A stretch of 64,000 bases of DNA from Vulcanimicrobiota bacterium (GCA_031082125.1 JAVHLM010000003.1:288842-352841); one strand, 5' to 3'. Counted from the stretch's first letter, positions 36,943 to 52,742 are shown. Numbers and translations are program-made. Notes: a model not told the origin generated them from the sequence alone.

Positions 36943-38190
36943 ATGGGAACCAATGAAGGGACAGGAGTCTCTTTCAGAGGGAAAGTCTTCCGCACTCCTA
37001 AAAAGAACCCGGGCAGCCCGCGGCTCATGGAGCCCGAGGAAGCCCTGGAGCTCATGAAACCCTTTCTCAGGAAAACAGGGCTCACGCGCTTTGCGCAGAT
37101 CACGGGCCTTCGAAGCGTGGGCATCCCGGCGGTGAACGCCATAAGGCCCATAAGCCATAACTCATCGGTAACCCATGGAAAAGGCCTCACCCTGGCCCAT
37201 GCCCTGGCCTCGGCAGCAGGGGAGTCCATAGAGCGCTATTGCTGGTTCAACTGTACCGTTCCCGCCTTCAGCAGCACCTATAATGATCTGAAAGAGCGGC
37301 GCACCGTGATCCCCATGGAAAGGCTGGCCCTTTCCAGGTTCTCGCTCTTCAGGCCTGACCTTCCTGAACAGTGGATGCTCGGCTGGGACCTCATGCATGA
37401 CGAGGAGGTGCCGGTGCCTTTTTCATCGGTGAGCAGGTCCGGCACCTGTTTCACCACGGAGCTCCGCTCCTTCCAGAGCACGTCAAACGGCCTCGCCTAC
37501 GGCGTGGACTTCCTGGAGGCCCTCTCTCAGGCAATCGAGGAAGTGGTGGAGCGGGACGCCGTCGCCTGCATGGATATGGCCCTCCTGTCAGGCCGGATAC
37601 CGCTCTCGAAAGTCCGCGTGGACCTCTCCACCATACCTTTCGAGACCATCGGGGGACTCATCGGAAAAATTGAAGAAGCGGGGCTCCTCCCTGTCCTGCT
37701 GGACTGCACTACCGATACGGCGATCCCCGTTTATCACTGCATGCTCCTCGATGACAAGAAATGCTACGTCGGATCAGGGGCGAGCCTGAGCCCCGAGACC
37801 GCCATGGCAAGGGCCTTCACCGAAGCGGCCCTCGCCCACGCCGTGCTGTTCAGCGGGGTGAGAGACGTTTATTTCAGGGACGAGAGGCTTGCAGGCTCGC
37901 TCGTCGATTTCAGGAAGCAGATGGCAGAATCCCTCGAAGCCCCGGCGGAAAGGAGCGCACGTGGCCTTTCCGCCGAAAGGACCGGGTCCTTTGAGGGGGA
38001 CATCGCCGTGATGAAGGATAAACTCCGGGGTGCCGGCATCGACCAGCTCATCGTGATAGACCTTCCAGAGCCAGGCCTCCCGGGGAGCGTGGTAAAGGTG
38101 ACGGCCCCCGGCCTCGAGGGATACCACCATACTATTGCCTATCGTCCGGGCTCCAGGGCTCTCAGCCGCATGAGCGGAGAGCGGCCCTGA
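36943..38190 (+). CDS. YcaO-domain protein (TfuA-associated type; ATP-dependent backbone amide activation)
   Basis: AGGAGG RBS. N-terminal LTRFAQITGLRSVGIPAVNAIRP and the canonical YcaO ATP-binding region GKGLTLAHALASAAGESIERY. Later TTDTAIPVYHCML (TD..IPV motif). Confidence 0.85.
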   Translation: MGTNEGTGVSFRGKVFRTPKKNPGSPRLMEPEEALELMKPFLRKTGLTRFAQITGLRSVGIPAVNAIRPISHNSSVTHGKGLTLAHALASAAGESIERYCWFNCTVPAFSSTYNDLKERRTVIPMERLALSRFSLFRPDLPEQWMLGWDLMHDEEVPVPFSSVSRSGTCFTTELRSFQSTSNGLAYGVDFLEALSQAIEEVVERDAVACMDMALLSGRIPLSKVRVDLSTIPFETIGGLIGKIEEAGLLPVLLDCTTDTAIPVYHCMLLDDKKCYVGSGASLSPETAMARAFTEAALAHAVLFSGVRDVYFRDERLAGSLVDFRKQMAESLEAPAERSARGLSAERTGSFEGDIAVMKDKLRGAGIDQLIVIDLPEPGLPGSVVKVTAPGLEGYHHTIAYRPGSRALSRMSGERP

Positions 38191-38242
38191 AAGCCCGGGG
38201 AACTGCGAAAGCGGTAAGAATATAAAAGAAAGGAGGGATGAC

Positions 38243-38530
38243 ATGTCTTTGGAAAAAGCGAAAGATGCGCTGAAGAAGATCATGAATGATCCGGACTTCA
38301 GCAGGAAGATGATCAATGTGAAGAGTGATCAGGAAGCGATAGAGCTCCTCTCTTCCCATGGCTTCAAGTTTACCAAGGAAGAATTCGAAAAGGCGAAGCA
38401 TGAGATGAGACAGGCTGTTATCAGCGACGCTGAGCTCGCAGGCGTGGCTGGAGGAAGCGACAGCTCCAACAAAACAGCTTATCCGGTTGCGAACAGTGTG
38501 ACAGTCGGAGCGGCGGCGGCTGCTTTCTAG
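38243..38530 (+). CDS. Nif11-type RiPP precursor peptide with Gly-Gly leader cleavage motif
   Basis: AGGAGG 7 nt before the ATG. Leader MSLEKAKDALKKIMNDPDFSRKMINVKSDQEAIELLSSHGFKFTKEEFEKAKHEM is a Nif11-family leader. ELAGVAGG is the double-glycine motif. Predicted core is SDSSNKTAYPVANSVTVGAAAAAF (24 aa). Confidence 0.8.
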   Translation: MSLEKAKDALKKIMNDPDFSRKMINVKSDQEAIELLSSHGFKFTKEEFEKAKHEMRQAVISDAELAGVAGGSDSSNKTAYPVANSVTVGAAAAAF

Positions 38531-38614
38531 AAGGCCATGAAGGGGCACACCGGCATCAGAGCGGTGTGCCCCTCATGAATTCCCATGAAGCCTTACAGGG
38601 CGGGAGGAATGTTC

Positions 38615-40009
38615 ATGAAGTGCGTGATCTTTACAGGGCCGACCCTCTCAAAGGAGGAAGCCCAGCCCTGGCTTGAAGCCATCTATCTGCCTCCCGCCAG
38701 GCAGGGAGACATAATAAGCGCCATATTCACCCACATGCCCGACATCATAGGCATCATCGACGGCGCGTCCTATCCGGACCTGGAAGTATGGCACCGGGAG
38801 CTGCTCTACGCGCTTGAGAACGGCATTGCCGTGTACGGCTCATCGTCAATCGGGGCGCTCCGGGCAGCGGAGCTGGATATCCATGGCATGCAGGGTGTGG
38901 GAAAGATATATGAGGGCCTCAAGGGCATTGAGGTGAGCGACGATGACGAGGTAATGTGCCACTATGAGTGCAGCGGCTCTCACCGGCGCATCTCCGAGCC
39001 CCTGGCGAACATCAGGGCGACTTTTGAGGCCCTCCACAGGGAGCGGCTGATTGACGGGAAGCTTGTGGCGACCCTTCCCGCCCTGGCGAAGTCGCTGCAT
39101 TACAGGAAGCGCACCTTTCAGGCGATCCTGGAAAAAGCCCGCAACGCCGGGGTGCTTTCCGAAAAGCAGGCCGAAGAGCTTCTCAATCATACGAGGTCCT
39201 GTTACGTGGATCTCCAGAAAGAAGACGCGATTGAACTTCTCAAGGCCGTCAAAAAGGCCATGGAGACCGGCGGCAGGGCACCGTACGGGAAGATTGTTGA
39301 CCGTTCCGACGATCTGATCTTCCACGTGGCGAAGTACAGGGACCGCACCATCTCACGTGACGGCGAAGGGGAAGGGCTCCCCCTGTTCTCGCTGGTGGAT
39401 TACATGGTCCTTACCCACCCTGAAGCCGACGAGCTTGCCGTGAGTGCAAAGAACCGTTTCCTGGCGGGAGTGCTTGCCGACATGCTTCACGTTGAGGCAT
39501 CTGACAGGGAGACAGGGGAGGAAGCCCTGACCTTCAGGACGCGCTATGGCCTCGAGGATCAGGAGCGATTCGGAGAGTGGCTTGCCGAAAACGATCTCGT
39601 CGAGGAAGAGTTCAGGCGGCTGATGGAACAGAACGCGAAGATGAAGGCGCTTCATGACTGGCTGAGGGACAAGCTCGGCCAGAGAAAGTTCACAAGGGTC
39701 ATCACCGATGAGCTCATGCTGACGGACCAGTATTCCCGGTGGGTCGGGAAAGCGCTCCTGGCCGAGAAGCTCTATCAGGAGCGCCGCGAGTACGGCGAAG
39801 AGCTCTTGAGCATCGAGGCTCCGGAGAAGCTGGTAAGGGACCACGTGGCGGGGGCTCCAAGGGAATGGCACAGGATCTTCAGGAAGGTCATGGAAGGGAT
39901 GGAGATCACCGATATCATGCTGAAACACCAGCTTGTCAAGGCCAGGATAGAGAGGGAGACGCTGGAAAAGGCGCTGCTGAGGCATCTCGAGCCGGCGGCC
40001 CACGAGTGA
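38615..40009 (+). CDS. TfuA-like protein (YcaO partner for thioamidation) with ~270-aa C-terminal extension
   Basis: MKCVIFTGPTLSKEEAQ...IYLPPARQGDIISA...IIGIIDGASYPDLEVWHRELLYALENGIAVYGSSSIGALRAAEL matches the TfuA domain. The start is taken at 38615 (GGAGG + 7 nt); an alternative ATG is at 38585. Confidence 0.8.
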   Translation: MKCVIFTGPTLSKEEAQPWLEAIYLPPARQGDIISAIFTHMPDIIGIIDGASYPDLEVWHRELLYALENGIAVYGSSSIGALRAAELDIHGMQGVGKIYEGLKGIEVSDDDEVMCHYECSGSHRRISEPLANIRATFEALHRERLIDGKLVATLPALAKSLHYRKRTFQAILEKARNAGVLSEKQAEELLNHTRSCYVDLQKEDAIELLKAVKKAMETGGRAPYGKIVDRSDDLIFHVAKYRDRTISRDGEGEGLPLFSLVDYMVLTHPEADELAVSAKNRFLAGVLADMLHVEASDRETGEEALTFRTRYGLEDQERFGEWLAENDLVEEEFRRLMEQNAKMKALHDWLRDKLGQRKFTRVITDELMLTDQYSRWVGKALLAEKLYQERREYGEELLSIEAPEKLVRDHVAGAPREWHRIFRKVMEGMEITDIMLKHQLVKARIERETLEKALLRHLEPAAHE

Positions 40010-40024: not shown

Positions 40025-41899
40025 ATGACCCGCAAGCCCGTTGATGTGCTGCTTCTCAACCCGCCCCTCAGCCTGCCGATGCCCTATCTGAGCATCCCTG
40101 TCCTTGCCTCGTACCTCAGGTCGCAGGGAATCAGCGTTGCCGCGTACGACGTGAACGGCGAGTTCTATTACCGCTTCATCACAAGAGAAAACGTACGCAG
40201 AGGGATCTCCCACGCGGCGGAGAGGCTCCAGGTGCTCAACGGCAGGGAAGAGCTGCGCTTCACCGAGATGATTGAGTATATCTCCAGTTACTACTACCTC
40301 ACGGAAGTGGAGAAAAACCTCCCCAAGGTCACGGCCTATCTTTTCCCCTTCTCGGACTGGAAACTGCTCCAGCAGCTTGATATCGACAAGCTTTTGATGA
40401 CCCTCGCAACTCTCCCTTATTTCCCGGAGATCCTGGTCACAAAGCCCCAGTTCATGTACACAAGCCCTTACTATGAGTTCTCATCGAAAGAGATTATGGA
40501 GAGCACAGGCCATGAGAGCTTTTATTCCGCCGCGGTGAGGGAGATCATGGAAGATCTCCTCAGTGAGTATGACCCGAAACTCATCGGTATCTCGCTCGCC
40601 TTCAGCGTACAGGCCCTTCCCGCATTCCTGATGGCGCGGTTCATCAAGGAGATTAGGCCTGAGTGCCACCTCACCATAGGGGGGACCTTCGTCTCATCGT
40701 ACATGCGCAGCCTCAGGGACGACACGCTCTTCCGCCATGTGGACAGCTTCGTGCTTGACGAGGGGGAGTTCCCTCTTGTGCAGCTTTTGAGGGAGTACGC
40801 CGGGGGAAAGCCCGACCTCAGAAAGGTTCAGAACCTCATCTTTGCCGAGAAGGGAGAGGTGATCTATACCGGGCCTGCCGAGCCCTTTGACCTGGAGAAG
40901 TCCTCCGCGCCTGACTACGGGGTTTTCCCCCTTGAGAAGTACACGGTGCCCCGCGAGGACCTCATGATACTCTTCAGGATCGCGAGGGGCTGTCCCTGGC
41001 AGAAGTGCACCTTCTGCAGGACCGACATCCCCCAGTGCAGCAACTTCCAGCAGCCCTCACCGGAGCTGCTCTATGAACAGTTCCGGGAGGTAGTGAAACA
41101 GACGGGGGCGCGCCGCTATTACTTCACCTCCGACAGCGCCGATCCGCTGGTTCTGGAATATTTTGCAAGGAGAATCATTGACGACGGCTTGAAAATAGAC
41201 TGGTACTGCCACACCCGTGTTGACCTGAGGCTTACCAGGGAGCGCTGCGAGCTTTACGGGAAATCAGGGTGCACCGGCATCTATCTCGGTGTTGAGACCT
41301 TCAACGACAGGATACTGAAACTGATGAACAAGGGCATCACTTCTGAGTGTGCAGACCGGGTCCTCCGCCAGGTTGAAGGCGCCCTGGACCTCCGCCTCTA
41401 CATGATGGTGGGCTTCCCCGGCGAGACCAGAGAAGAGGCCCTTGAAGACTTCCGCAGAGTGCAGGAATATCTGAAGCTCGGCCTTATCAAGGACTACCAC
41501 TTCTCACCGGTGCAGATACTGCAGGGCTCCGCCATGTACCGGGACCTCGAAAAATACGGCATCACCAGCCTCATCACCACCGAGGGGGCCGATCTCGAGG
41601 GCGAGGTAAGCAACTTCACAAGCAGCGGGATGTCGCTGCAGCAGGTCATCGAATTTTTCCAGCAGTACGCTGCCGACCGCAGCAAGATCTTCCCGGAGTT
41701 CTTCTCCTCGGAGGGCCGGGAGCACCGGAGCCTCCGGATCAATGGCCGCGAGGTGGAGGCTGCCTTTGACATCGCTCAGATCGTGAGGACGGTGGACAGC
41801 CTCTGGGAGTTCGCGTACCTCACCAAGTCAAGATGGCTGGCCCTCGGCGAGAGCCGCATCGCCCCCCTGAAGCCCATGCTCACCGGGATGAGGCAGTGA
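40025..41899 (+). CDS. B12-binding-domain radical SAM protein, paralog 1 of 3
   Basis: N-terminal B12-binding Rossmann region (VDVLLLNPPLSLPMPYLSIPVLASYLRSQGISVAAYD). Cys cluster ARGCPWQKCTFCRTD has CX4CX2C spacing, checked against the DNA frame. About 620 aa. Confidence 0.8.
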   Translation: MTRKPVDVLLLNPPLSLPMPYLSIPVLASYLRSQGISVAAYDVNGEFYYRFITRENVRRGISHAAERLQVLNGREELRFTEMIEYISSYYYLTEVEKNLPKVTAYLFPFSDWKLLQQLDIDKLLMTLATLPYFPEILVTKPQFMYTSPYYEFSSKEIMESTGHESFYSAAVREIMEDLLSEYDPKLIGISLAFSVQALPAFLMARFIKEIRPECHLTIGGTFVSSYMRSLRDDTLFRHVDSFVLDEGEFPLVQLLREYAGGKPDLRKVQNLIFAEKGEVIYTGPAEPFDLEKSSAPDYGVFPLEKYTVPREDLMILFRIARGCPWQKCTFCRTDIPQCSNFQQPSPELLYEQFREVVKQTGARRYYFTSDSADPLVLEYFARRIIDDGLKIDWYCHTRVDLRLTRERCELYGKSGCTGIYLGVETFNDRILKLMNKGITSECADRVLRQVEGALDLRLYMMVGFPGETREEALEDFRRVQEYLKLGLIKDYHFSPVQILQGSAMYRDLEKYGITSLITTEGADLEGEVSNFTSSGMSLQQVIEFFQQYAADRSKIFPEFFSSEGREHRSLRINGREVEAAFDIAQIVRTVDSLWEFAYLTKSRWLALGESRIAPLKPMLTGMRQ

Positions 41900-43794
41900 T
41901 GAAGAAAGAAGCAGAGGTGCTCCTCATCAATCCCCCCTTCGCAGAGCCGCGGCCCTATATCAGCATCCCCACGCTTGTTTCATATCTTGAGTCCCGGGGC
42001 ATCCGCACCGCGGCATATGATCTCAACTGCGAGTTTTTCTACCGCTTTCTCACAAGGGAGAGGATCCGCAGGGGCATAGAATATGTTTCGGAGAGGTTCC
42101 TCGAGCTTAACGGCAGAGATGAGCTCGCCTTCAGGGAGATGCTTGAATACACGGTATGCTGCGATTTGCTCAGGGACATGGAGGAGCACCTGGGGAAGCT
42201 CACCCTGGCGCTCCTGCCTTTTTCAGATTTCCAGATACTCAGGAGCCTGGAGCTTGAGAGCCTGCTCAGCGGCCTCACGACAGCCCCCTATTTTCCCGAG
42301 CTCCTGATCTCGAAGCCCCAGTTCACTTATGCAAGCCCCTATTTCGAGTACTCCACGGCCGACATCGCGGAGAGCACGGGCCATGAGAGCTTTTATTCCG
42401 CCCTCTTAAGAGAGATAATCGCTGAAATACTCGACGAGTATGAGCCCAGGGTGGCGGGCATCTCAATAGTGCTCACAGAGCAGGTGGTGCCTGCTTTCCT
42501 TGCGGCACGCATCATCAAGGAGTTGAAGCCTGACCTTCATGTAACGGTCGGCGGGCCCTTTGTCTCCACTTATCTGAAGGATCTCAAGAACACGGTGCTC
42601 TTTGATTACGTGGACAGCCTGGTCTTTGACGAGGGTGAGCTCCCCCTCGAGCAGCTCGCCAGGGAGCTCGCGGGCACGAAGCCCGACCTCGGGAGAGTGC
42701 AGAACCTCGCATATCTGAAAAACGGGAGCCTTGTATCCACTCCCCCGGCAGAAACACTTCCTGCCGAGGCATCGCCTCCTCCCGACTACAGGGCCCTTCC
42801 CCTGGACAGGTATCTTGTCTCAGAAAGAAACGCCGAGATGCTCTTCAGGCTCTCGAAGGGATGCTCGTGGCACCGCTGCACCTTCTGCAGGACCGACATC
42901 GCGATGTGCCGGGAATACCGGCAGGCCCCTCATTCCTTCGTCTATGAGAGCCTGCTCGAGGTCATCAGGGACACGGGGTGCGGCAGGTTCCGCTTTACCA
43001 GCGAAGATTCTGACCCGCTGCTCCTTGAGCATATCTCGAAGAGGCTCCTGGAAGACGGCATATCCATAAAGTGGCGATGCCACGCACGCGTTGACGCGCG
43101 GTTCACCAGGGAGCGCGGCGAGCTCTACCGCAAGGCGGGGTGCACGAGCCTTTACCTCGGCGTGGAATCTTTCAGCGACAGGATCCTGCGCATGATGAAC
43201 AAGGGGATTACCTGCGGGCTCATTGACAGGGTCCTCACAGAGCTCGGCGGCGGCGTTCCCGTGCGCCTCTATATGATGGTGGGATTTCCGGGGGAGACTG
43301 AAGAAGAGGCGCTCGCCGGGTACGGGAAGGTGCGCTCCCTTCTTGAGCAAGGCCTTATCGGCGACTATAAGTACTCTATCTTCGAGATGCAGTCAGGATC
43401 AGAAGTGGGGGAGCACCCGGAGCGTTTCGGCCTCAGTGATCTTAGCCGTTACCCGCGCTCGGACCTGCCCTCTGAGATACTGGAGTTCGAAAGCAGAGGG
43501 ATGCCCAGGGAACGGGCTCTCATGCTGGCCGCAGAGTTCGAGAAAAACAGGAGAGAGTGGGATCCCCAGCTGGACAGGGTCTGTGAGCGCTATGAAGAGA
43601 CGGTTGAGCACGTCACTGTGAAGGGAGACCCCGTGGAGGTGAGGTTCAACGTCAAGGAGATACTGGAGAGAATGGCCCATTCCACGGGGCTCTATTTCCT
43701 CCCCCGGATCGGGGAATGGATACGGTACGGGGAACAGCATATCACCCCTGTCAGGGCTGCCCGCCGGGCGTCGCAGCCGCTCAGCACTGTATGA
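41899..43794 (+). CDS. B12-binding-domain radical SAM protein, paralog 2 of 3
   Basis: ATGA overlap with paralog 1. SKGCSWHRCTFCRTD. Collinear similarity to paralog 1 throughout (for example SPYYEFS/SPYFEYS, ESTGHESFYSA in both, YMMVGFPGET in both). Confidence 0.8.
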   Translation: MKKEAEVLLINPPFAEPRPYISIPTLVSYLESRGIRTAAYDLNCEFFYRFLTRERIRRGIEYVSERFLELNGRDELAFREMLEYTVCCDLLRDMEEHLGKLTLALLPFSDFQILRSLELESLLSGLTTAPYFPELLISKPQFTYASPYFEYSTADIAESTGHESFYSALLREIIAEILDEYEPRVAGISIVLTEQVVPAFLAARIIKELKPDLHVTVGGPFVSTYLKDLKNTVLFDYVDSLVFDEGELPLEQLARELAGTKPDLGRVQNLAYLKNGSLVSTPPAETLPAEASPPPDYRALPLDRYLVSERNAEMLFRLSKGCSWHRCTFCRTDIAMCREYRQAPHSFVYESLLEVIRDTGCGRFRFTSEDSDPLLLEHISKRLLEDGISIKWRCHARVDARFTRERGELYRKAGCTSLYLGVESFSDRILRMMNKGITCGLIDRVLTELGGGVPVRLYMMVGFPGETEEEALAGYGKVRSLLEQGLIGDYKYSIFEMQSGSEVGEHPERFGLSDLSRYPRSDLPSEILEFESRGMPRERALMLAAEFEKNRREWDPQLDRVCERYEETVEHVTVKGDPVEVRFNVKEILERMAHSTGLYFLPRIGEWIRYGEQHITPVRAARRASQPLSTV

Positions 43795-45629
43795 AAAAAC
43801 CTGTTGACGTGCTTCTCATCAATCCTCCCTTCTCAAGGCCCGATGAGCCTGTGATAGGCATCGCCACCCTCGCGGCATATCTCAAGACGAGGCAGATCAC
43901 TGTCGAGGCGAAAGATGCAAGCCTCGAGCTCTTTCGCAGAACAGTAACGAATGACTGCATCAATGAAGAGAGAGCCTATGCCGGAGAGAGGTTCACGGAG
44001 CTCAACGGCAGAAGCGTTCTCGACTTCTGCGGGATCTATGAGTACGTGAGGCTCTTTTCCCTGCTTCTGCGCCTGCAGGGGCTTCAGGGCATCTTTGATG
44101 ATGCCGGGGGGGATCTCTGGGAAAAGCTCAGGCATGCAAGCGACACGGTGAGGTCCTCGTTTCTCGAGCTTGCCACGGCATCGTTCTTTCCCCGCTTCAT
44201 ACTCTATGGAGGCCCGCCGACCTTCAGCTGCCACTCTCCTTACCACCACTTCTCCAAAGCCGACATACTCGCTTCCCTTGACGATCCCGCCTGGTACTCC
44301 GAGGCGCTCGAGAATACTATTGCACTGTACTTTGAGGAGATGAGCCCGCGGATCGCCGCAATCTCGGTGTCATACTTTAACCAGATTATTCCGGCCTTTC
44401 AGTGCGCCCGCATCATAAGAAGGATTGCGCCGGGTGTCCATATCAGCATGGGAGGATCGGCGGTCCAGATATTTTTTCGGAAGGTGAGGGATACCGGGCT
44501 CTTCGCCATTGTTGACACCATTGCCACCGGAGACGGCGAGGCGACGCTCGAGGCGCTCTCACGAGAGCTTCAGAGGAAGTCAGCCTCACTGGAGGCGGTG
44601 CCAGGAATCATCTACCTGTCAGGCACGATGGTGAAAAAAAATGACCCGGCGCCGCCCCTTCCTGTTGAAGGCCTCTCCCTCCCCGATTACAGGGCCTTCC
44701 CCCCGGAAGACTTCATGGCCGGCCCCGAGGCAATGCGCTTGCCCCTGAGGCTCTCGAAGGGGTGCTCCTGGGGCAGGTGCTCCTTCTGCCGGACCGAGCT
44801 TTCCATGATAAAAGCGTACCAGGCGCCGACGGCGGGGCGCCTCTTCCCGATGGTCACCGATTTCATCATTGCCACGGGGTGCCGGAAGATCCACTTTGCC
44901 GACGAGTCAATTGATCCCGAAGCCCTGGAGGAGATCTCGAAAGAGCTCATCGGCAGGGAACTCACCCTTGACTGGAACTTTCAGACGAGAATCAACAGAA
45001 AGATCACTGAGAGGCGCTGCAGGCTCTTCAGGGAGGCGGGATGCTCGGCCATCTCCTTCGGTGCAGAATCCTTCAGCGACAGGGTCCTTGGCCTGATGAG
45101 CAAGGGCATCACGGCAGAGCTCATAGAAAAGGTGCTCTATGAGGCCGGGAGCGTTCTGCCTGTCACCATCTTCATGATGGTGGGCTTCCCCGGCGAGACC
45201 GAAGAGGAAGCGAGGGAGAGCTTCAGGAAAGTCCGGGAGCTTGCCCGGGCAGGAGTGATCCGCGATTATATCTACTCCCCCTTCATTATCCACTCAGGCT
45301 CTGCAATGATGGCGGAGCCGGGGCGCTACGGCATCACCGAGCTGCACCACGGTCCTGGAGAAGACCTTTCACCTGATATCATCGATTATCAGTGCACCGG
45401 CATGGCAAGGGAAAAAGCCAGGGAGCTCTTCATCGAGTTTTCCCGGAGCCAGGCAGGCCGCCGGCCCTGGCCGCCGGAGGTCAGGATAGGAAAAAATACC
45501 GTTCCGCGGAGGTTTGACGTGGAAGAAATGATGGGGATCATTGCCCGGGAGACCTCCATGCGCCCTGCGATGCCCCTCTACCGCCTGATCATCACGGCAG
45601 AAGCGTCGCTTGCTCCTGAATCCATATGA
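43791..45629 (+). CDS. B12-binding-domain radical SAM protein, paralog 3 of 3
   Basis: ATGA overlap with paralog 2. SKGCSWGRCSFCRTE. The family block FMMVGFPGETEEEA is shared. Confidence 0.8.
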   Translation: MKKPVDVLLINPPFSRPDEPVIGIATLAAYLKTRQITVEAKDASLELFRRTVTNDCINEERAYAGERFTELNGRSVLDFCGIYEYVRLFSLLLRLQGLQGIFDDAGGDLWEKLRHASDTVRSSFLELATASFFPRFILYGGPPTFSCHSPYHHFSKADILASLDDPAWYSEALENTIALYFEEMSPRIAAISVSYFNQIIPAFQCARIIRRIAPGVHISMGGSAVQIFFRKVRDTGLFAIVDTIATGDGEATLEALSRELQRKSASLEAVPGIIYLSGTMVKKNDPAPPLPVEGLSLPDYRAFPPEDFMAGPEAMRLPLRLSKGCSWGRCSFCRTELSMIKAYQAPTAGRLFPMVTDFIIATGCRKIHFADESIDPEALEEISKELIGRELTLDWNFQTRINRKITERRCRLFREAGCSAISFGAESFSDRVLGLMSKGITAELIEKVLYEAGSVLPVTIFMMVGFPGETEEEARESFRKVRELARAGVIRDYIYSPFIIHSGSAMMAEPGRYGITELHHGPGEDLSPDIIDYQCTGMAREKARELFIEFSRSQAGRRPWPPEVRIGKNTVPRRFDVEEMMGIIARETSMRPAMPLYRLIITAEASLAPESI

Positions 45630-45645: not shown

Positions 45646-46746
45646 GTGTTCACAGAAAAGAGCCGCCTTTCCCTCAAGAGAACCATATACTCGGTGATGC
45701 TTGACGGCAAAGATCTCGTGCTTCTTTGCACCCCCTGCGAGCCCGTGGTGCTGAAGGAGCTCTCACCTTTCAGAAGGGAACTCCTCATTCTGCTTGACGG
45801 GAGGCGCACCGCGGGAGAGATCATGCAGGAGCTGAACGCGCGGGGCCATCGGTGCATTTTCAGCAAGGTGAGGGAAGAGCTTGATCGGCTCGATGAGTGG
45901 CTCCTTCTGGAAGAGGAGGGTGATGCTCCTTTGCCGGAGGATACAGAGCATGCGGGGCGTAACGACCGCACGCGCCTGTGGTTCGCCGCCAGGAGGACCT
46001 CAGGTGCCTCCTTTGCCCGCCAGGCAGAGAGAGATCTCCAGTCGGCCCATATCGTCCTCTTCGGCCTGGGAGGGCTGGGCTCGCAGCTCTTCACCCAGCT
46101 CCTGCTGACAGGCATCGGTGAGATCACCGCCGTTGACTGCGAGAAGGTGGAGGAGAGCAACCTGAACAGGCAGAGCCTCTTCTACGAGAGCAACGTGGGC
46201 CGCCTGAAGACGGAGGCTGCGGCGGAGCGGGCCCGGCTGATGAACAGCTCAGCATCCATTCATTTTGTGGATAAGAGAATCGCCTCGGCTGGAGACTTCG
46301 CCTCACTGATGGCCCCTGCGAGCCTGGCGCTCCTCGCCGCCGATACTCCCCGCGACATGATATTCGACTGGATGAACGAGGCCAGTTACACGACAGGCGT
46401 GCCGGTGCTCTACAGCAACGGTGTCCTCCAGTCCTCCATGGGGATCGGCCCGCTGGTGATCCCTGGCAGGACGGCGTGCTATCAGTGCTCGATGCCCGAA
46501 GGCGCCCGTTTTGAAGACCCCCTCGTGGAGCAGATCAACAGGCGGCACTGCCACGGGGTGATACTCCCTCCTCTTGCCATGTGCGCGGGTCTTATGGTGC
46601 TTGAGCTCGTGAGGCATCTCACTGGATGCGAACCCTGCCGGATTTATGACCGCAGGCTTCACATGGACTTCAGAAATTACCGGATGTGGTTCCAGGATAT
46701 AGAAAAGCGCCGGAGCTGCCCTTTCTGCGAACAGAGAGCGCCATGA
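45646..46746 (+). CDS. E1-like (ThiF/MoeB/HesA-family) protein with N-terminal PqqD-like RRE domain
   Basis: GGGAGGAG + 6 nt + GTG start. The N-terminal ~90 aa (YSVMLDGKDLVLL...ELLILLDGRRTAGEIMQELNARG) resemble RiPP recognition elements. E1 Rossmann motif IVLFGLGGLGSQLF...ITAVDCEKVEESNLNRQ. Paired CxxC zinc motifs (CYQC...CPFC). Confidence 0.75.
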   Translation: MFTEKSRLSLKRTIYSVMLDGKDLVLLCTPCEPVVLKELSPFRRELLILLDGRRTAGEIMQELNARGHRCIFSKVREELDRLDEWLLLEEEGDAPLPEDTEHAGRNDRTRLWFAARRTSGASFARQAERDLQSAHIVLFGLGGLGSQLFTQLLLTGIGEITAVDCEKVEESNLNRQSLFYESNVGRLKTEAAAERARLMNSSASIHFVDKRIASAGDFASLMAPASLALLAADTPRDMIFDWMNEASYTTGVPVLYSNGVLQSSMGIGPLVIPGRTACYQCSMPEGARFEDPLVEQINRRHCHGVILPPLAMCAGLMVLELVRHLTGCEPCRIYDRRLHMDFRNYRMWFQDIEKRRSCPFCEQRAP

Positions 46747-46807: not shown

Positions 46808-49711
46808 CTAGGTGAGCTGGCGGTCCGCCAGCTTCCTGAAGGTGCCCTCGACGCTCATGAGCTCTTTGAAGGTGCCTGCCTGCACGATCCTCCCTTTCTC
46901 CAGCACATAGATCCTGTCGGCCTTCACCACGGTGCTGAGCCTCTGTGCTATTACTATCTTTGTGGCCTTGAGAGTGAGAAGCTGTTCCGTCACCACGCTC
47001 TGGACCCTGTTGTCAAGAGAGCTCGTCGCTTCATCGAAGAGCAGTATTCTCGGCTTTTTCGCCAGGGCCCGGGCTATCAGGAGCCTCTGCTTCTGGCCTC
47101 CTGAGAAAGTCTGTTCCCCTTCCATGACCACGGTGTGCATTCCCATCGGCATGGCCTTGATATCCTGGTCTATGCCGGCTGTCCTTGCTGCCTCCCACGC
47201 GTCATCGAGGGAGAGCTCCACCGAGCCCGAGATGTTGGAAAAGATATCGCCGGCCATCAGCTCGCTTTTCTGCAGCACTGCTCCAATCTGGCTCCTCACG
47301 GCCGAGATGTCGAGGGTCCCGAGGTCTCTCCCGTCATAGTAAAGGGCCCCCTGCTCGGGCGCCTCAAAGCCGAGGAGGCACCTGAAAAGGGTTGATTTCC
47401 CTGATCCCGAGGGCCCCACGAAGGCAATAAACTCGCCGGGCTTCGCCTGGAAGGTGACGCTCTTCAGCACCATGGGACCGTCGGTCCTGTAACGGAAAGA
47501 GAGATTGCTCGCCTCCACGGCACCATGGAGCTCGCCGGGGTCAAGCTTCTCCTCGTCAACCTCCTGTAATGCCTCAAATATAGGCTTCATCCTGTCGTAG
47601 AGGGGAACGCTCCTTACGAGCTCCCCCGCAATGGCACCCAACTGGATCATGGCGGCAAGAAACCCGGTGAAGGCGGCGTTGAAAGCGAGAAAATTCCCCA
47701 GGCTCATGGAGGTCCCTCCGATGACCTCAGCGTTATGCTCCATGGTGGCGGCGAGAGCAAAAATTGCGCCTGCGGACAGGAGAGGGAGCATTGAGGTGAA
47801 GACCTCGAGACGGGCGCCCACAAGGCCGGCTTTATAGGAAAAGTTTTTCTGACGCGAGAACTTCCCGGCCCATTCTGAAAAAGCGAGAGCCTGTGCCCCT
47901 GCTATCTTTATCTTGCCGATCCCTTTCACAAGGTCAAAGACGAAGCCATAGAGCTGTCCCTGGATATTGATCTCTCTGCGGGCGAGGGAAAGCTGGAGAG
48001 AGCTGGCAAGAATAATCGCCGCGAGCAGTGCCAGGGCAAAGAGAGCGGCAGTTATTGCAAGACTGCTCTGATAATAGAAAAGGATCAGAAAGCTGAAGGA
48101 GGCATAGATCGCCCCCTGTATGGCCGGTAAGGCAAGGCCCTCGAAGAACTGGCTCATGATGGAGTCGAAGCCCAGGGAGCGCATGGCGAGATCACCTGAC
48201 GAGTACCTGTTGAAGAAAGCGCAGGGCAGGGCCATGAGCCGATCCCACAGGGCGCACTGGATGACGCCCTTGGCCGTTCCTTCCATCCTGAGAAAAGCAA
48301 CACCCTGGGTAAACTGAAAGACTGCCACCGCAAGAGAGCCCGCCAGAAGGGCCACGGAGAGCTGCACCAGGAGGGGCATCTCCCTTTCCGGGACTATCAA
48401 GTCAAAGATTATCCCCGTCGCCACAGGAATAAGCAGGCCGAATAACCCCATTGCCATCGCCACAAAAACCGATACCTTCATGTCGGATTTAAGCAGCGGC
48501 AGGCTGATGAGCAGGATATCCCGTAGGGAAAGAGGTTTATTGGGAAAGGGCCTGTAGAGCATGTAAGCCTTAGTATCAATGGAGGCGGCTCTCTCCCTGT
48601 CAACAGGAAACTCGGAAATTTCACCTGAAGCAACCCCCTTATAGCGTCCTTTACAAGGCAGAAGAGCCAGAGGCTTCCCCGATTCCTTGAGAAAACCGAC
48701 CATGGGCCCCCTTTCCCTCTTCCACCAATCACCTTCGAGGGTGACTCTCCGCGTCCTCACCTTTGACGCTCTTGAAATGGCCGAAAGAGAGAGGGGTGGA
48801 GCATTCTCCCCATGCGAAGCAGGAGGCTCTTTCAGCGTGAAATGCATATATTCAGCCACACGCCGGCAAGCGTTGAAAAGAGGCGATTCGCCGGAAGGCG
48901 CCTCCTCCCCGGGTGAGCCTGCCTTCTCCGTTGATGAGGCGAGATAATGGAGGGCTTTACTCAATACCTGGCCCTCATGCTGCCTCCTCTGCTCAATGGT
49001 CTCCGATTCCCTGCGCTCCTGCCCGTCCATCGAATGGCCGATGGCGCAGAGCACCGCCCTGTGAAACGCGCTGAGCCCGGCAAGCTCCCGGTCTTCCGCG
49101 ACGTAGTGGGCGGTAGTCAATGACTTCAGCCTTGAGGGCTCGCGGCATGATGCCCATCCAAGGCGGGAGAGGGGGAAGTATGAGCCGGAAAGGGCGCATG
49201 GCTCTCCATCGATGCCCATAAATGCCGAGGCCCCTTCCCGGTGTGAGATCCACAGGACGGGAGCGAGTGAGCTGATGGCGTCATCCTTCTCAGCGAGGTA
49301 CTCTTCACCTTCGGTGAGAAGCCTCAGCTTTCTTGGAAGTGATGCCGTTCTGAGAAGCCCCCTCGAAAGCGCCTCGATCCATCGGTCAGCAAGAGGGACA
49401 AGCTCCGCGCCAACTGCTGAGATACTTGTCTCTTGGAGCTCTGTCCCGTTTTCGCCCACGGCGAGGAGTGCGATGCCCTGAAAGGGCTCGAAACCGAAGA
49501 GAGCCTCATCCTTCTCAATTGTGCAGACATAATGACGGTATGAGGCCGCGCCGCCATGCCTCACGGCAAAGATATTGACACGGTTTTTCCTCACTATCCA
49601 GACAGACCCCGTTCCTTCGGCAAAAAAAGGCTCATTTCCGCCGACGGCTCTTCTGCCTTCAGGTCTGTTGCTCTCGTTTCTGCCGTCTCCTTCCATGCTC
49701 CGCTCCCTCAA
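46808..49711 (-). CDS. ABC transporter permease/ATP-binding protein with ~420-aa N-terminal cytoplasmic extension (NHLM/Nif11 bacteriocin-export type, non-peptidase subunit)
   Basis: C-terminal half has six TM helices and an NBD (Walker A GPSGSGKST, signature FSGGQKQRL, Walker B ILLFDEAT). The N-terminal 420 aa have no C39 Cys/His motif and no recognised domain. Confidence 0.75.
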   Translation of the reverse strand: MRERSMEGDGRNESNRPEGRRAVGGNEPFFAEGTGSVWIVRKNRVNIFAVRHGGAASYRHYVCTIEKDEALFGFEPFQGIALLAVGENGTELQETSISAVGAELVPLADRWIEALSRGLLRTASLPRKLRLLTEGEEYLAEKDDAISSLAPVLWISHREGASAFMGIDGEPCALSGSYFPLSRLGWASCREPSRLKSLTTAHYVAEDRELAGLSAFHRAVLCAIGHSMDGQERRESETIEQRRQHEGQVLSKALHYLASSTEKAGSPGEEAPSGESPLFNACRRVAEYMHFTLKEPPASHGENAPPLSLSAISRASKVRTRRVTLEGDWWKRERGPMVGFLKESGKPLALLPCKGRYKGVASGEISEFPVDRERAASIDTKAYMLYRPFPNKPLSLRDILLISLPLLKSDMKVSVFVAMAMGLFGLLIPVATGIIFDLIVPEREMPLLVQLSVALLAGSLAVAVFQFTQGVAFLRMEGTAKGVIQCALWDRLMALPCAFFNRYSSGDLAMRSLGFDSIMSQFFEGLALPAIQGAIYASFSFLILFYYQSSLAITAALFALALLAAIILASSLQLSLARREINIQGQLYGFVFDLVKGIGKIKIAGAQALAFSEWAGKFSRQKNFSYKAGLVGARLEVFTSMLPLLSAGAIFALAATMEHNAEVIGGTSMSLGNFLAFNAAFTGFLAAMIQLGAIAGELVRSVPLYDRMKPIFEALQEVDEEKLDPGELHGAVEASNLSFRYRTDGPMVLKSVTFQAKPGEFIAFVGPSGSGKSTLFRCLLGFEAPEQGALYYDGRDLGTLDISAVRSQIGAVLQKSELMAGDIFSNISGSVELSLDDAWEAARTAGIDQDIKAMPMGMHTVVMEGEQTFSGGQKQRLLIARALAKKPRILLFDEATSSLDNRVQSVVTEQLLTLKATKIVIAQRLSTVVKADRIYVLEKGRIVQAGTFKELMSVEGTFRKLADRQLT

Positions 49712-51917: not shown

Positions 51918-52742
51918 CTAAAACCTGACTGGAAGCATGAGGGAGAGCGGCGTCACCGTTTTCAAGATAACGGTGGCGGAGCAGGGAGTGACATTGCTGA
52001 TCTTGATGGCGGGCCCCCTGCCTGACGACCACTTGTAGCCGCTCACGGTGGAGGCATCCCTGGTGGGGATGGCGCGGATTCCGATCTTCGGGGTTCCTTT
52101 CAGGCAGATCTCTGCCAGGGTCTCATTATGGACTTTCCTCATCACCTCGGCCCTGGTGACAGGAAACTCCGTGATGCCGGCGACCTTCCCGTAAATGAAG
52201 CCGAAGTCCTGCCTGTTCACCGTCGAGGGGGATATCAGAATGTCCATGCCGGGCGTTACAAGCTTTCCGTTCTCCATTGAAATGAAAATGACGGCATCTA
52301 TTTCTGAAGTTTCGGCCTGAACGGTCCCGAAGGTTTCTTCCTGCCTTATGAAGTTACCCTCGTCAAAAGGGAGCGATACGAGAATTCCCGTCATGGGGCT
52401 TTTGATTTCGAAGGCATCGCCGCCGGAGGAATCGGTCCTTCGCACCCTTGCGAGCACCTGGTCCCTTGTAACCCGATCTCCCTGCTTCACCGGCAGGCAT
52501 TCTATGGTTCCTGCCAGGCCGGCGATGATTCCTTTCATTTCCCCCATGCCCAGCAGCATTCCCTCTCCGCTTATGGTGATGGGAATTCTTCCAAAAATCA
52601 GCCACAGGATCGCGAAGAGTATAAGGACCCCTGAGGCGGCGAGGGCAAGCCACCCCCTGGAGCTTACAATGGTGACGCACTGGTCGAGCTGCTCCGGCGA
52701 GGTGAGCTTCTGTAAGGCCTCTTTCCTGTATATCTCCCTCAT
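51918..52742 (-). CDS. HlyD-family membrane-fusion/secretion protein (bacteriocin export accessory)
   Basis: MREIYRKEALQKLTSPEQLDQ then a single TM helix and a beta-barrel/lipoyl-like periplasmic domain. It lies immediately upstream of and is co-oriented with the two ABC genes. Confidence 0.75.
   Translation of the reverse strand: MREIYRKEALQKLTSPEQLDQCVTIVSSRGWLALAASGVLILFAILWLIFGRIPITISGEGMLLGMGEMKGIIAGLAGTIECLPVKQGDRVTRDQVLARVRRTDSSGGDAFEIKSPMTGILVSLPFDEGNFIRQEETFGTVQAETSEIDAVIFISMENGKLVTPGMDILISPSTVNRQDFGFIYGKVAGITEFPVTRAEVMRKVHNETLAEICLKGTPKIGIRAIPTRDASTVSGYKWSSGRGPAIKISNVTPCSATVILKTVTPLSLMLPVRF

What the first reader, a model, noticed from the sequence alone, without database searches (positions are those of the whole stretch)
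36943..40009. YcaO-TfuA pair flanking the precursor gene (predicted peptide backbone thioamidation)
The YcaO has the ATP-binding block GKGLTLAHALASAAGESIERY and the N-terminus typical of TfuA-associated YcaOs. The gene after the precursor has a clear TfuA domain and a ~270-aa C-terminal extension not present in minimal TfuA proteins. An E1-like partner with an RRE is also present downstream, so the same YcaO could instead, or additionally, act with E1 (azoline formation on the core Ser/Thr). Which partner is used cannot be decided from sequence.
Basis: partly seen in the sequence, partly recalled or inferred. Interest (0 to 1): 0.75.

Follow-up and report, generated by a model that had tools for sequence, protein, structure and literature searches.

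The report
YcaO–TfuA thioamide peptide gene cluster
This is a real but fairly ordinary gene cluster for a ribosomally made peptide whose backbone is most likely sulfur-substituted (thioamidated) by a YcaO–TfuA enzyme pair; the product has never been made or characterised.

Summary
Window 36943-40009 encodes a 415-aa YcaO, a 95-aa Nif11-leader precursor and a long TfuA, in that order.

They open a seven-gene cassette: YcaO, precursor, TfuA, three B12-type radical SAM enzymes, and an RRE-fused ThiF/E1. NHLP-type export genes lie convergent to it. The same cassette recurs in at least five other metagenome or MAG contigs, apparently all Eremiobacterota (Xenobiia).

The partner question can largely be settled from sequence:
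- 78 of 80 genomic relatives of this YcaO have a tfuA gene directly downstream.
- Several relatives also carry ThiS plus rhodanese-MoeB, a sulfur relay.
- The family profile matches the archaeal thioamide-forming YcaO MJ1094 far better than azoline-forming enzymes.
- No family member has the PxPxP tail of cyclodehydratases, and the cores contain no Cys.
- The E1 models as a full-length MccB/PaaA-type enzyme with intact ATP-site residues. It is not a degenerate cyclodehydratase C-protein, so it probably adenylates a peptide carboxylate.

The TfuA C-terminal extension is the common bacterial form. It is all-helical and weakly resembles SurA/PrsA/trigger-factor chaperone modules.

A similar Desulforegula cluster was catalogued in silico in 2021. 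Verdict: new member of a known kind, with no biochemistry behind it.

The parts
36943..38190 (+). YcaO (415 aa), a stand-alone ATP-dependent amide-activating enzyme of the TfuA-associated type
   Evidence: PF02624 4.2e-58. The best NCBIfam model is TIGR03266, the McrA thioamidation YcaO, at 156 bits; TIGR03604 (TOMM) scores 98 and NF040716 (E. coli type) 30. The best PDB hit is MJ1094. There is no PxPxP tail.
38243..38530 (+). Nif11-leader precursor (95 aa). Leader residues 1-71 (38243-38455) end in AGVAGG. The 24-aa core is SDSSNKTAYPVANSVTVGAAAAAF (38456-38527).
   Evidence: TIGR03798 scores 54.3 bits, above its cut-off. Orthologous cores in L090, L001, L002 and L091 share an Ala-rich C-terminal half and the ending A-x-A-F.
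38536..38577 (+). Conserved RNA hairpin directly after the precursor stop codon. It is probably a transcript attenuator or stabiliser that sets the precursor:enzyme ratio (inferred).
   Evidence: Folding z-score is -3.06. The same stem occurs in L090, L001 and L002, with one compensatory pair change and two one-sided changes.
38615..40009 (+). Long TfuA (464 aa from the ATG at 38615; the ORF opens at 38585). In 474-aa ORF numbering, the TfuA domain is residues 12-227 (38618-39265) and the all-helical C-terminal domain is residues 228-474 (39266-40006).
40025..41899 (+). B12-binding-domain radical SAM enzyme 1 (624 aa), a probable peptide C-methyltransferase
   Evidence: PF04055 2e-17 plus a weak PF02310 hit. 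TIGR04479 and TIGR03975 match below their cut-offs. The cluster motif is CPWQKCTFC.
41899..43794 (+). B12-binding-domain radical SAM enzyme 2 (631 aa from the ATG at 41899, which overlaps the rSAM1 stop as TGATG)
   Evidence: It is 47% identical to rSAM1.
43791..45629 (+). B12-binding-domain radical SAM enzyme 3 (612 aa from the ATG at 43791, in an ATGA overlap)
   Evidence: TIGR03975 (RiPP C-methyltransferase) scores 119.9 bits, below the 281.85 cut-off.
45646..46746 (+). RRE-fused ThiF/E1 adenylating enzyme of MccB/PaaA architecture (366 aa from the GTG at 45646). The RRE is roughly residues 1-90 and the adenylation domain roughly residues 105-366.
   Evidence: PF00899 5.9e-39. PDB sequence hits are MccB at 3e-23 and PaaA at 3e-15. 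The AF2 model has pLDDT 87. Foldseek gives MccB at E 5.6e-26 and TM 0.78-0.86 over the full length. R105, R108, GxGxxG, D164, R175, K188, D233 and two CxxC pairs are invariant.
46808..49711 (-). NHLP-type bacteriocin export ABC transporter, permease/ATPase subunit (ABC2)
   Evidence: TIGR03797 scores 823.8 bits, above its cut-off.
49716..51914 (-). NHLP-type export ABC transporter with a C39 peptidase domain (ABC1). It is the predicted double-glycine leader protease and exporter.
   Evidence: TIGR03796 scores 1013.7 bits, above its cut-off.
51918..52742 (-). NHLP-system HlyD-type adaptor, shortened to 274 aa
   Evidence: TIGR03794 scores 218 bits in two stretches.
52911..55752 (-). Pair of M16 (insulinase-like) peptidase genes (52911-54398 and 54385-55752). 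They may belong to the cluster; membership is uncertain.
   Evidence: PF00675 and PF05193 hit both proteins. This pair is not conserved next to the cassette in L001, L002 or L090.

Best explanation
This is a RiPP biosynthetic cluster. The proposed pathway has five steps.

1. **Substrate.** The 95-aa Nif11-leader precursor is the substrate.
2. **Thioamidation.** The stand-alone YcaO uses ATP to O-phosphorylate one or more backbone amides in the Ala/Gly-rich C-terminal half of the 24-aa core. A sulfide equivalent displaces the phosphate to give thioamide(s). TfuA is the obligate partner. By analogy with archaeal TfuA, it releases sulfide from a thiocarboxylated ThiS-type carrier and raises the affinity of YcaO for its substrate. 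The extra helical C-terminal domain of TfuA may hold the unfolded peptide (tentative).
3. **Methylation.** The three class-B radical SAM paralogues probably add C-methyl groups.
4. **E1 step.** The RRE-fused MccB-like E1 probably binds the leader and adenylates a peptide carboxylate, most plausibly the invariant C-terminal ...A-x-A-F-COOH. The outcome of that step is unknown.
5. **Export.** The C39-peptidase ABC transporter cuts after AGVAGG and exports the product together with the ABC2 and HlyD partners.

**Shown here:** gene content, domain identities, conserved synteny and conserved catalytic motifs.

**Inferred:** every chemical step, the modified residues and the order of events.
For: **Identity of the YcaO**
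- PF02624 hits at 4e-58.
- The best curated model is the McrA-glycine thioamidation YcaO, TIGR03266, at 156 bits. TOMM SagD scores 98 bits and the E. coli type 30 bits.
- A profile of 40 family members against the PDB gives MJ1094 251.7 bits, TruD/MusD/LynD approximately 145, M. kandleri YcaO 107 and EcYcaO 51.
- None of the 40 family members has a C-terminal PxPxP. PMC12338566 calls that motif canonical for azoline-forming YcaOs.

**Synteny**
- 78 of 80 genome loci that encode a relative have a TfuA domain directly downstream.
- At least six of those loci also carry a ThiS-family gene plus a rhodanese-MoeB gene right after tfuA. That is the sulfur relay expected for TfuA-dependent thioamidation (role of TfuA as summarised in PMC13063428 and PMC8939145).

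**TfuA**
- PF07812 hits at 5e-35, and 6xp8 at 8e-36.
- It keeps 56 of 64 family-conserved positions.

**Cassette conservation**
- YcaO-Nif11-TfuA-rSAMx3-ThiF is conserved in L001, L002/L003, L004/L091 and L090, at 53-79% TfuA identity and with different flanking genes.

**Substrate**
- The cores contain no Cys, Ser/Thr positions are not conserved, and the C-terminal half is Ala-rich.

**The E1 is not a cyclodehydratase C-protein**
- MccB and PaaA are the best sequence and fold matches over the full length, and the ATP-site residues are invariant.
- TIGR03603 scores 25 bits against a cut-off of 188.

**Export**
- The NHLP ABC1, ABC2 and HlyD models all score above their cut-offs.
Against: - There is no biochemical or mass-spectrometric evidence for any member of this cassette.
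- The YcaO and TfuA both score below the equivalog cut-offs of the McrA-specific NCBIfam models (156 vs 365; 198.7 vs 235.2). They are paralogues of the characterised enzymes, not orthologues.
- No ThiS-like gene is present in the 64-kb window, so the sulfur source is unknown.
- YcaO enzymes can also make amidines with nitrogen nucleophiles (PMC12338566).
- No proper phylogenetic tree with characterised references was built.
Confidence: 0.75

Rival explanations
1. The YcaO works with the downstream E1-like/RRE protein as a TOMM-type cyclodehydratase and converts core Ser/Thr to (methyl)oxazolines. TfuA would then be accessory or irrelevant.
For: - An RRE-fused E1-like protein is a conserved member of the cassette.
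- ThiF-like proteins are known to serve purely as leader-binding partners of YcaO cyclodehydratases (PMC12596934).
- The core contains Ser and Thr.
- TIGR03604 still gives 98 bits.
Against: - Only 11 of 80 YcaO relatives have any ThiF relative nearby. Where examined, those are rhodanese-MoeB + ThiS sulfur-relay genes.
- Related Nif11/YcaO/long-TfuA loci lack the E1.
- The E1 keeps every adenylation residue and models as MccB/PaaA.
- TIGR03603 scores 25 against a cut-off of 188, and TIGR03604 is below its cut-off of 219.
- No PxPxP tail is present.
- The cores have no Cys, and Ser/Thr positions are not conserved between orthologous cores.
- The E1 gene is 7.4 kb from ycaO, separated from it by five genes.
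- No azoline dehydrogenase is present.
Confidence: 0.07
2. The YcaO activates a backbone amide for attack by a nitrogen nucleophile (an amidine or macroamidine, as in bottromycin-type or ammonia-dependent YcaOs) rather than by sulfur.
For: YcaO enzymes use amine and ammonia nucleophiles in several RiPP pathways (PMC12338566). No sulfur-carrier gene lies in the window.
Against: - The near-universal tfuA adjacency in this YcaO clade, and the ThiS/MoeB modules in relatives, point to sulfur chemistry.
- The closest characterised homologue, MJ1094, is thioamide-forming.
Confidence: 0.06
3. This is a sub-hypothesis and is compatible with thioamidation. The RRE-fused E1 is part of sulfur delivery. 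It would adenylate, and allow thiocarboxylation of, a peptide C-terminus or a housekeeping ThiS. It would thereby replace the ThiS + rhodanese-MoeB pair that sits next to YcaO-TfuA in other bacteria.
For: - ThiS plus rhodanese-MoeB genes directly follow tfuA in L014, L022, L024, L025, L028 and L031.
- The window cassette has an E1 at the equivalent end of the operon but no ThiS.
- The E1 is catalytically intact.
- TfuA is reported to hydrolyse thiocarboxylated ThiS.
Against: - The E1 has an RRE instead of a rhodanese domain, and its closest relatives are peptide-modifying MccB and PaaA.
- The precursor ends in Phe, not Gly-Gly.
- Relatives L005-L007 thioamidate, by inference, without any such E1.
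- Characterised RRE-ThiF enzymes make phosphoramidate, thiolactone, imide or indolylamide linkages, not thiocarboxylates.
Confidence: 0.15

Closest known systems
Archaeal McrA-glycine thioamidation pair YcaO/TfuA (e.g. M. jannaschii MJ1094, PDB 6pe3; TfuA 6xp8)
   Same: It shares the stand-alone approximately 400-aa YcaO plus an adjacent TfuA. These are the best sequence and profile matches. ATP-dependent amide activation followed by sulfur delivery is the expected chemistry.
   Different: The substrate here is a leader-bearing RiPP precursor, not a folded enzyme subunit. Both proteins fall below the equivalog cut-offs. TfuA carries a 247-aa extra domain, and the precursor gene is inserted between ycaO and tfuA.
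Thioamitides (thioviridamide/thiostreptamide; TvaH YcaO + TvaI TfuA) and other thioamidated RiPPs
   Same: A YcaO-TfuA pair acts on a RiPP core. Thioamitide cores being Ala-rich is from my own knowledge, not tested here.
   Different: The leader family differs (Nif11, with a GG cleavage site and NHLP exporters). No thioamitide tailoring genes are present. The phylum differs (Eremiobacterota rather than Actinomycetota). There are three class-B radical SAM enzymes and an MccB-like E1.
Nif11-precursor TfuA-YcaO cluster of Desulforegula conservatrix catalogued by Malit et al. 2021 (PMC8120280, Fig. 4D)
   Same: It has a Nif11 precursor, YcaO-TfuA, a B12-domain radical SAM and family-specific transporters. 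The figure legend also lists a 'MoeB' annotation.
   Different: That cluster is known only from genome mining, so no product or mechanism is available. I could not retrieve that locus to compare gene by gene. The cassette here appears restricted to Eremiobacterota/Xenobiia MAGs.
Proteusins (polytheonamide-type; NHLP/Nif11 leaders with B12 radical SAM C-methyltransferases PoyB/PoyC)
   Same: It shares the Nif11-type leader, several class-B radical SAM enzymes that hit TIGR03975, and NHLP-type export.
   Different: The TIGR03975 scores (93-120 bits) are below the 282 cut-off. No PoyD-like epimerase was seen in the cluster. The core is short (24 aa). YcaO-TfuA is present.
RRE-fused ThiF-like RiPP enzymes: MccB, PaaA, GrcB, EnfB, IndF
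   Same: The architecture is the same: an N-terminal peptide clamp/RRE plus an active E1 adenylation domain. Fold matches reach TM 0.78-0.86 to MccB. IndF sets a precedent for adenylation of a hydrophobic C-terminal carboxylate.
   Different: The precursor ends in Phe, not the Asn that MccB needs, and it has no Glu-Glu (PaaA) or Glu...Cys (GrcB) motif. Identity is only about 20%. The product of this step is unknown.
TOMM/LAP cyclodehydratase (E1-like C protein + YcaO D protein)
   Same: A YcaO and an RRE-bearing E1-superfamily protein occur in one cluster.
   Different: Both proteins score below the SagC and SagD model cut-offs, and there is no PxPxP. The E1 is catalytically intact and not adjacent to the YcaO. 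There is no Cys in the core and no dehydrogenase.

Membership tests
TfuA-associated thioamide-forming YcaO | YcaO domain with the conserved ATP/Mg-binding acidic motifs | tested here: met
   PF02624 hits at 4.2e-58. The motifs GKG (79-81), ExxE (94/97), SNGLA (181-185) and ExxERD (200-205) are invariant across 40 family members. Assigning these motifs to ATP/Mg binding rests on my knowledge of the E. coli YcaO structures.
TfuA-associated thioamide-forming YcaO | tfuA gene adjacent, in this locus and in relatives | tested here: met
   In the window the two genes are separated only by the precursor gene. In 78 of 80 genome loci, tfuA lies directly downstream of the YcaO relative.
TfuA-associated thioamide-forming YcaO | Closer to characterised thioamide-forming than to azoline-forming or E. 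coli-type YcaOs | tested here: met
   TIGR03266 scores 156, TIGR03604 98 and NF040716 30 bits. The profile against PDB gives MJ1094 252 bits, TruD/LynD/MusD approximately 145 and EcYcaO 51. No tree was built.
TfuA-associated thioamide-forming YcaO | Equivalog-level match to the McrA-glycine enzyme (TIGR03266 cut-off 365) | tested here: not met
   It scores 156 bits. It is therefore not the McrA orthologue, as expected for a bacterial RiPP paralogue.
TfuA-associated thioamide-forming YcaO | ATP- and sulfide-dependent +16 Da modification of the substrate | not testable with these tools
   This needs reconstitution and mass spectrometry.
TfuA | TfuA domain above the Pfam gathering score, with the family-conserved residues | tested here: met
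   PF07812 scores 120.3 bits against a cut-off of 30. 6xp8 hits at 8e-36. It keeps 56 of 64 positions that are >=90% conserved. NF033432 scores 198.7, below its equivalog cut-off of 235.2.
TfuA | Hydrolysis of thiocarboxylated ThiS / stimulation of YcaO | not testable with these tools
   This function is taken from the literature summaries. No ThiS gene lies in the window, but ThiS + MoeB follow tfuA in six related loci.
TOMM/LAP cyclodehydratase (C + D proteins) | E1-like C protein of the SagC family (TIGR03603) | tested here: not met
   It scores 25.2 bits against a cut-off of 187.65. The fold and sequence are closest to MccB and PaaA, and the ATP-site residues are intact.
TOMM/LAP cyclodehydratase (C + D proteins) | SagD-family YcaO with a C-terminal PxPxP motif | tested here: not met
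   TIGR03604 scores 97.9 against a cut-off of 219.25. PxPxP is absent in the window protein and in all 40 relatives.
TOMM/LAP cyclodehydratase (C + D proteins) | Core rich in conserved Cys/Ser/Thr to be cyclised | tested here: not met
   The cores have no Cys, and Ser/Thr positions differ between orthologous cores.
MccB/PaaA-type RRE-fused ThiF-like RiPP enzyme | N-terminal peptide-binding domain plus an E1 adenylation domain with intact nucleotide-binding residues | tested here: met
   Foldseek gives full-length matches to MccB (E 5.6e-26) and PaaA (1.2e-22). The Arg finger, GxGxxG, D164, R175/Q176, K188, D233 and 2x CxxC are invariant. The residue roles follow PMC12596934.
MccB/PaaA-type RRE-fused ThiF-like RiPP enzyme | Substrate motif of a characterised member (C-terminal Asn for MccB; Glu-Glu for PaaA; Glu...Cys for GrcB) | tested here: not met
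   The core ends in ...AAAAAF and has no EE or Cys. Only IndF-type use of a hydrophobic C-terminal carboxylate is comparable.
Nif11-leader RiPP precursor with NHLP-type export | Nif11 leader model above cut-off, a GG cleavage site, and the dedicated ABC1 (C39), ABC2 and HlyD genes | tested here: met
   TIGR03798 scores 54.3 against 32.3. TIGR03797 scores 823.8 against 709.4, TIGR03796 1013.7 against 853.3 and TIGR03794 218 against 156.2. The leader ends in AGVAGG.
Proteusins (polytheonamide type) | RiPP C-methyltransferase radical SAM of the TIGR03975 family, plus a radical SAM epimerase | tested here: not met
   TIGR03975 scores 92.7, 94.3 and 119.9 bits against a cut-off of 281.85. No fourth, epimerase-type radical SAM lies in the cassette.

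The most novel reading that the evidence does not exclude
The cassette may carry its own peptide-based sulfur relay, or a new C-terminal chemistry.

- **Sulfur-relay reading.** The RRE-fused, catalytically intact E1 would adenylate a peptide C-terminus. Candidates are the invariant ...A-x-A-F-COOH of the core, or the ...AGVAGG-COOH end of the leader that the C39 transporter leaves in the cytoplasm. The activated terminus would be thiocarboxylated and serve TfuA/YcaO in place of the ThiS + rhodanese-MoeB pair seen in related loci.
- **Cyclisation reading.** Alternatively, the activated terminus would be captured intramolecularly to give a new macrocycle on a thioamidated, C-methylated peptide.

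In parallel, the SurA/trigger-factor-like C-terminal domain of long TfuA would be the missing substrate-recruitment module of bacterial thioamidation systems, which have no RRE on either YcaO or TfuA.
Probability: 0.12. Interest if true: 0.75.

Novelty: new member of a known kind. Interest (0 to 1): 0.45.

Why it matters
Backbone thioamides are rare in natural products, and most known thioamidated RiPPs come from Actinomycetota. This cassette sits in the little-studied phylum Eremiobacterota. It combines predicted thioamidation with three class-B radical SAM enzymes and an MccB-like adenylating enzyme on a short Nif11-led peptide, and no product of that combination has been described.

If expressed, it could yield a new thioamidated and C-methylated peptide scaffold. 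It would also offer a tractable system for two open questions:
- How bacterial YcaO-TfuA pairs recognise their substrates. The conserved but unannotated TfuA C-terminal domain is a candidate.
- How sulfur reaches these enzymes when no ThiS is encoded nearby.

As it stands, this is a well-supported genome-mining lead rather than a surprise.

Tried and rejected
- **Genome scan with one protein:** scanning genome contigs with the TfuA protein alone found no relatives. The scan had to be repeated with a YcaO alignment.
- **Promoters and terminators:** a consensus scan of 36.4-47 kb gave no more sites than shuffled sequence.
- **Nearest outgroup ThiF contexts:** the contexts of P0252 and P0253 (about 31-33% identity) were uninformative, with no RiPP genes nearby.
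- **TfuA C-domain:**
  - A profile search against PDB sequences gave no hit.
  - Foldseek against PDB gave nothing significant (best E=1), although the top list was again SurA, PrsA and PEB4.
  - A profile search of 1.84 billion representatives returned essentially only long TfuAs among the top 150 listed hits, with no link to an annotated chaperone family.
- **ThiS in the window:** a search for ThiS-like ORFs ending in GG found nothing credible.
- **Rest of the window:** Pfam annotation showed no sulfur-carrier or cysteine-desulfurase genes.
- **Literature:**
  - The primary papers on TfuA function, the MjYcaO structure and the PxPxP motif (PMC8084935, PMC6535971, PMC4167974) are not held. 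Those points are cited second-hand.
  - Searches for 'Xenobiia' and for TfuA + SurA found nothing relevant.
- **Readings considered and rejected:**
  - An E. coli-type housekeeping YcaO (30 bits against a cut-off of 700).
  - A McrA orthologue (bacterial genome, below cut-off).
  - Microcin C-type chemistry for the E1 (no C-terminal Asn).

Full report
**Observation**

The region 36943-40009 holds three co-directional genes.

- **YcaO.** The first gene (36943-38190) encodes a 415-aa protein with a full-length YcaO domain (PF02624, E=4.2e-58). It is identical to a protein annotated in a Candidatus Eremiobacteraeota MAG on a 365,891-bp contig.
- **Precursor.** The second gene (38243-38530) encodes a 95-aa Nif11-leader RiPP precursor (TIGR03798, 54.3 bits, cut-off 32.3). 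Its 71-aa leader ends in AGVAGG, and its 24-aa core is SDSSNKTAYPVANSVTVGAAAAAF.
- **TfuA.** The third gene (ORF from 38585, probable start ATG 38615 behind a GGAGG) encodes a TfuA (PF07812, 4.9e-35). It aligns over residues 12-227 with the 217-aa archaeal TfuA structure 6xp8 (8e-36). A 247-aa extension follows.

The only adjustments are the start codon and the size of the extension.

**Surroundings**

The three genes open a tightly packed operon.

- **Radical SAM enzymes.** Three paralogous radical SAM enzymes carry an N-terminal B12-binding-type domain. They lie at 40025-41899, 41899-43794 and 43791-45629 and are 34-47% identical to one another. Their start and stop codons overlap.
- **ThiF-family protein.** It lies at 45646-46746.
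- **Export genes.** Convergent on the minus strand are the NHLP-family export genes: ABC2 (46808-49711), C39-peptidase ABC1 (49716-51914) and a short HlyD (51918-52742). All score above their NCBIfam cut-offs. Two M16 peptidase genes follow.
- **Upstream.** TypA and a TPR-CHAT protein look unrelated to the cluster.

The seven-gene cassette YcaO-Nif11-TfuA-rSAMx3-ThiF recurs with different flanks in several places:
- JGI metagenome contigs L001 and L091;
- Logan contigs L002/L003 and L004;
- the 3.03-Mb contig of Candidatus Xenobiia bacterium LiM19 (L090).

TfuA identity across these is 53-79%. Close relatives of the ThiF (51-100% identity) number only about ten, and those that carry a taxonomic label come from Eremiobacterota-type MAGs. 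Identity then drops to 33% or less.

**Which partner does the YcaO use?**

Several independent lines favour TfuA.

1. **Curated profiles.** The best NCBIfam model is the McrA-glycine thioamidation YcaO (TIGR03266, 156 bits). The TOMM cyclodehydratase model scores 98 bits and the E. coli-type model 30 bits.
2. **Solved structures.** A profile of 40 family members scores MJ1094, the M. jannaschii thioamide-forming YcaO, at 252 bits. Azoline-forming TruD, MusD and LynD score about 145, M. kandleri YcaO 107 and E. coli YcaO 51.
3. **Missing motif.** None of the 40 family members has the C-terminal PxPxP motif. PMC12338566 calls that motif canonical for azoline-forming YcaOs.
4. **Synteny.** A scan of 185,579 species genomes with the family alignment returned 80 loci. 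In 78 of them a TfuA domain lies directly downstream of the YcaO relative. A ThiF relative was nearby in only 11.
5. **Sulfur-relay genes in relatives.** Where I looked at those ThiF relatives (L024, Azospirillum cavernae), the genes after tfuA are a ThiS-family protein ending in LAGG and a rhodanese-MoeB fusion. The same ThiS + MoeB pair is present in six loci. This is the sulfur-carrier system expected if TfuA delivers sulfide from thiocarboxylated ThiS, as summarised in PMC13063428 and PMC8939145.
6. **Loci without the E1.** More distant Nif11/YcaO/long-TfuA loci have no E1 at all. These are L005, Nostoc sp. C117 (L006) and L007.
7. **Cores.** The orthologous cores contain no Cys, and their Ser/Thr positions are not conserved.

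**The E1-like protein**

Its N-terminal ~90 residues have the PqqD-like strand-and-helix pattern and the LLxLLDGxRTxxEI signature. It is not, however, the degenerate E1-like C-protein of cyclodehydratases.

- The best PDB sequence hits are MccB (3e-23) and PaaA (3e-15; the PaaA alignment includes the N-terminal domain).
- An AlphaFold model (pLDDT 87) matches MccB over its full length (Foldseek E=5.6e-26, TM 0.78-0.86), then PaaA. ThiF, MoeB and UBA5 match over the catalytic domain only.
- The Arg finger, GxGxxG, D164, R175/Q176, K188, the Mg-binding Asp (D233) and both CxxC pairs are invariant. These correspond to the ATP-site residues listed for ThiF and MccB in PMC12596934.
- The SagC-family model gives 25 bits against a cut-off of 188.

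Characterised RRE-ThiF enzymes adenylate a peptide carboxylate. The linkages they make are a phosphoramidate (MccB), an indolizidone (PaaA), a thiolactone (GrcB), a cyclic imide (EnfB) and an indolylamide macrocycle through a hydrophobic C-terminal carboxylate (IndF).

All five cassette cores end in A-x-A-F, and all carry an Asp at core position 1-3. I therefore infer that this enzyme adenylates a carboxylate of the precursor, most likely the C-terminus. The outcome is unknown. A role in sulfur supply cannot be excluded, and I list it as a sub-hypothesis.

**The TfuA extension**

The extension is not peculiar to this locus.

- Most of the 120 best TfuA homologues are 440-500 aa long.
- A profile of the extension alone finds 1,268 50%-identity clusters at E<=1e-10. 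Among the 150 best hits listed, most full-length (~450-aa) proteins carry it at residues ~220-450.
- The AlphaFold model is confident (pLDDT 89.7) and all-helical.
- Eleven of 60 homologues give sub-threshold Pfam hits to SurA_N_3, Trigger_C or SurA_N.
- Against this, Foldseek and a PDB sequence-profile search gave nothing significant.

I regard a peptide-holding role for this domain as a lead, at roughly even odds. I found no paper that links TfuA to such a domain.

**Mechanism proposed**

1. The precursor is bound, by the E1 RRE and/or the TfuA C-domain.
2. YcaO phosphorylates backbone amide oxygen(s) in the Ala-rich C-terminal half of the core.
3. TfuA supplies sulfide and a thioamide forms.
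4. The class-B radical SAM enzymes add C-methyl groups. This is inferred only from their family: PhpK and TIGR03975 hits below cut-off, and a best but weak PDB hit to the iterative methylase CysS.
5. The E1 modifies a carboxylate.
6. The C39 transporter removes the leader after GG and exports the product.

Only gene content, domain identity, conserved motifs and synteny are shown here. All of the chemistry is inferred.

**Comparison with known systems and novelty**

The pair belongs to the known kind 'TfuA-associated thioamide-forming YcaO'. It is a paralogue, not an orthologue, of the archaeal McrA enzymes, because it falls below the equivalog cut-offs.

Malit et al. 2021 already listed, from genome mining alone, a Desulforegula conservatrix cluster. 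It has a Nif11 precursor, TfuA-YcaO, a B12-domain radical SAM and the family-specific transporters, and the figure legend includes a 'MoeB' annotation. I found no report of a product for any such cluster.

E. coli YcaO is now known to thioamidate ribosomal protein uL16 without TfuA. The window protein is clearly not of that type.

My rating is a new member of a known kind and of moderate interest. It is a good genome-mining target in an under-explored phylum. The open points worth testing are the role of the E1, the role of the TfuA C-domain and the source of sulfur.

Noticed in passing
window 38536-38577 (+); also L090 ~11591-11650, L001 ~9905-9950, L002 ~932-975: A strong hairpin (CATGAAGGGGCACACCGG...CGGTGTGCCCCTCATG) sits directly after the precursor stop codon, with a folding z-score of -3.06. 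The stem is conserved in three orthologous loci, with one compensatory and two one-sided changes. It is probably an attenuator or stabiliser that raises the precursor:enzyme ratio. No U-tract follows it.
   Followed up: partly
L024 10591-12071 (Azospirillum cavernae); also L014, L022, L025, L028, L031: In several genomes the YcaO-long-TfuA pair is followed directly by a ThiS-family gene (PF02597, ending in ...LAGG) and a rhodanese-MoeB fusion. This is a dedicated sulfur-carrier module beside the thioamidation pair. The window cassette lacks it.
   Followed up: partly
window 39266-40006 (+): The approximately 247-aa C-terminal domain of bacterial 'long' TfuA is a large family without a Pfam annotation: 2,276 50%-identity clusters at E<=1e-3. 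It has a confident all-helical model that weakly resembles the SurA/PrsA/trigger-factor chaperone module. Some representatives are approximately 245-aa proteins that consist of this domain alone; these may be fragments.
   Followed up: partly
window 40025-45629 (+): All three radical SAM paralogues carry a CX4CX2C cluster motif (CPWQKCTFC, CSWHRCTFC, CSWGRCSFC) rather than the canonical CX3CX2C. Their B12-binding-domain Pfam hits are all below the gathering score.
   Followed up: no
window 38585/38615, 41833/41899, 43716/43791, 45610/45646: The longest-ORF starts are probably wrong for four genes. Homologue lengths, Shine-Dalgarno-like GGAGG motifs and TGATG/ATGA overlaps point to starts at 38615 (TfuA), 41899 (rSAM2), 43791 (rSAM3) and GTG 45646 (ThiF).
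   Followed up: yes
window 51918-52742 (-): The NHLP-system HlyD adaptor is only 274 aa, against a 421-position model that it matches in two separate stretches. The central part appears to be missing. The homologue in L091 is also short, at 339 aa.
   Followed up: no
window 52911-55752 (-): Two overlapping M16 (insulinase-type) peptidase genes lie immediately behind the export genes. They may degrade the leader or process the product, but they are not found beside the cassette in other loci.
   Followed up: partly
window 10707-12122 (-), 19950-21356 (-), 61893-63197 (-): Three further radical SAM genes lie elsewhere in the window: one plain, one with a clear B12-binding domain and one SPASM-type. 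The SPASM enzyme near the window end could mark a second peptide-modification locus.
   Followed up: no
window 20001-22000 and 28001-30000: Two stretches have lower G+C (0.45-0.47, against approximately 0.55 elsewhere). The second coincides with a PMT_2-family glycosyltransferase gene followed by a second predicted glycosyltransferase gene.
   Followed up: no
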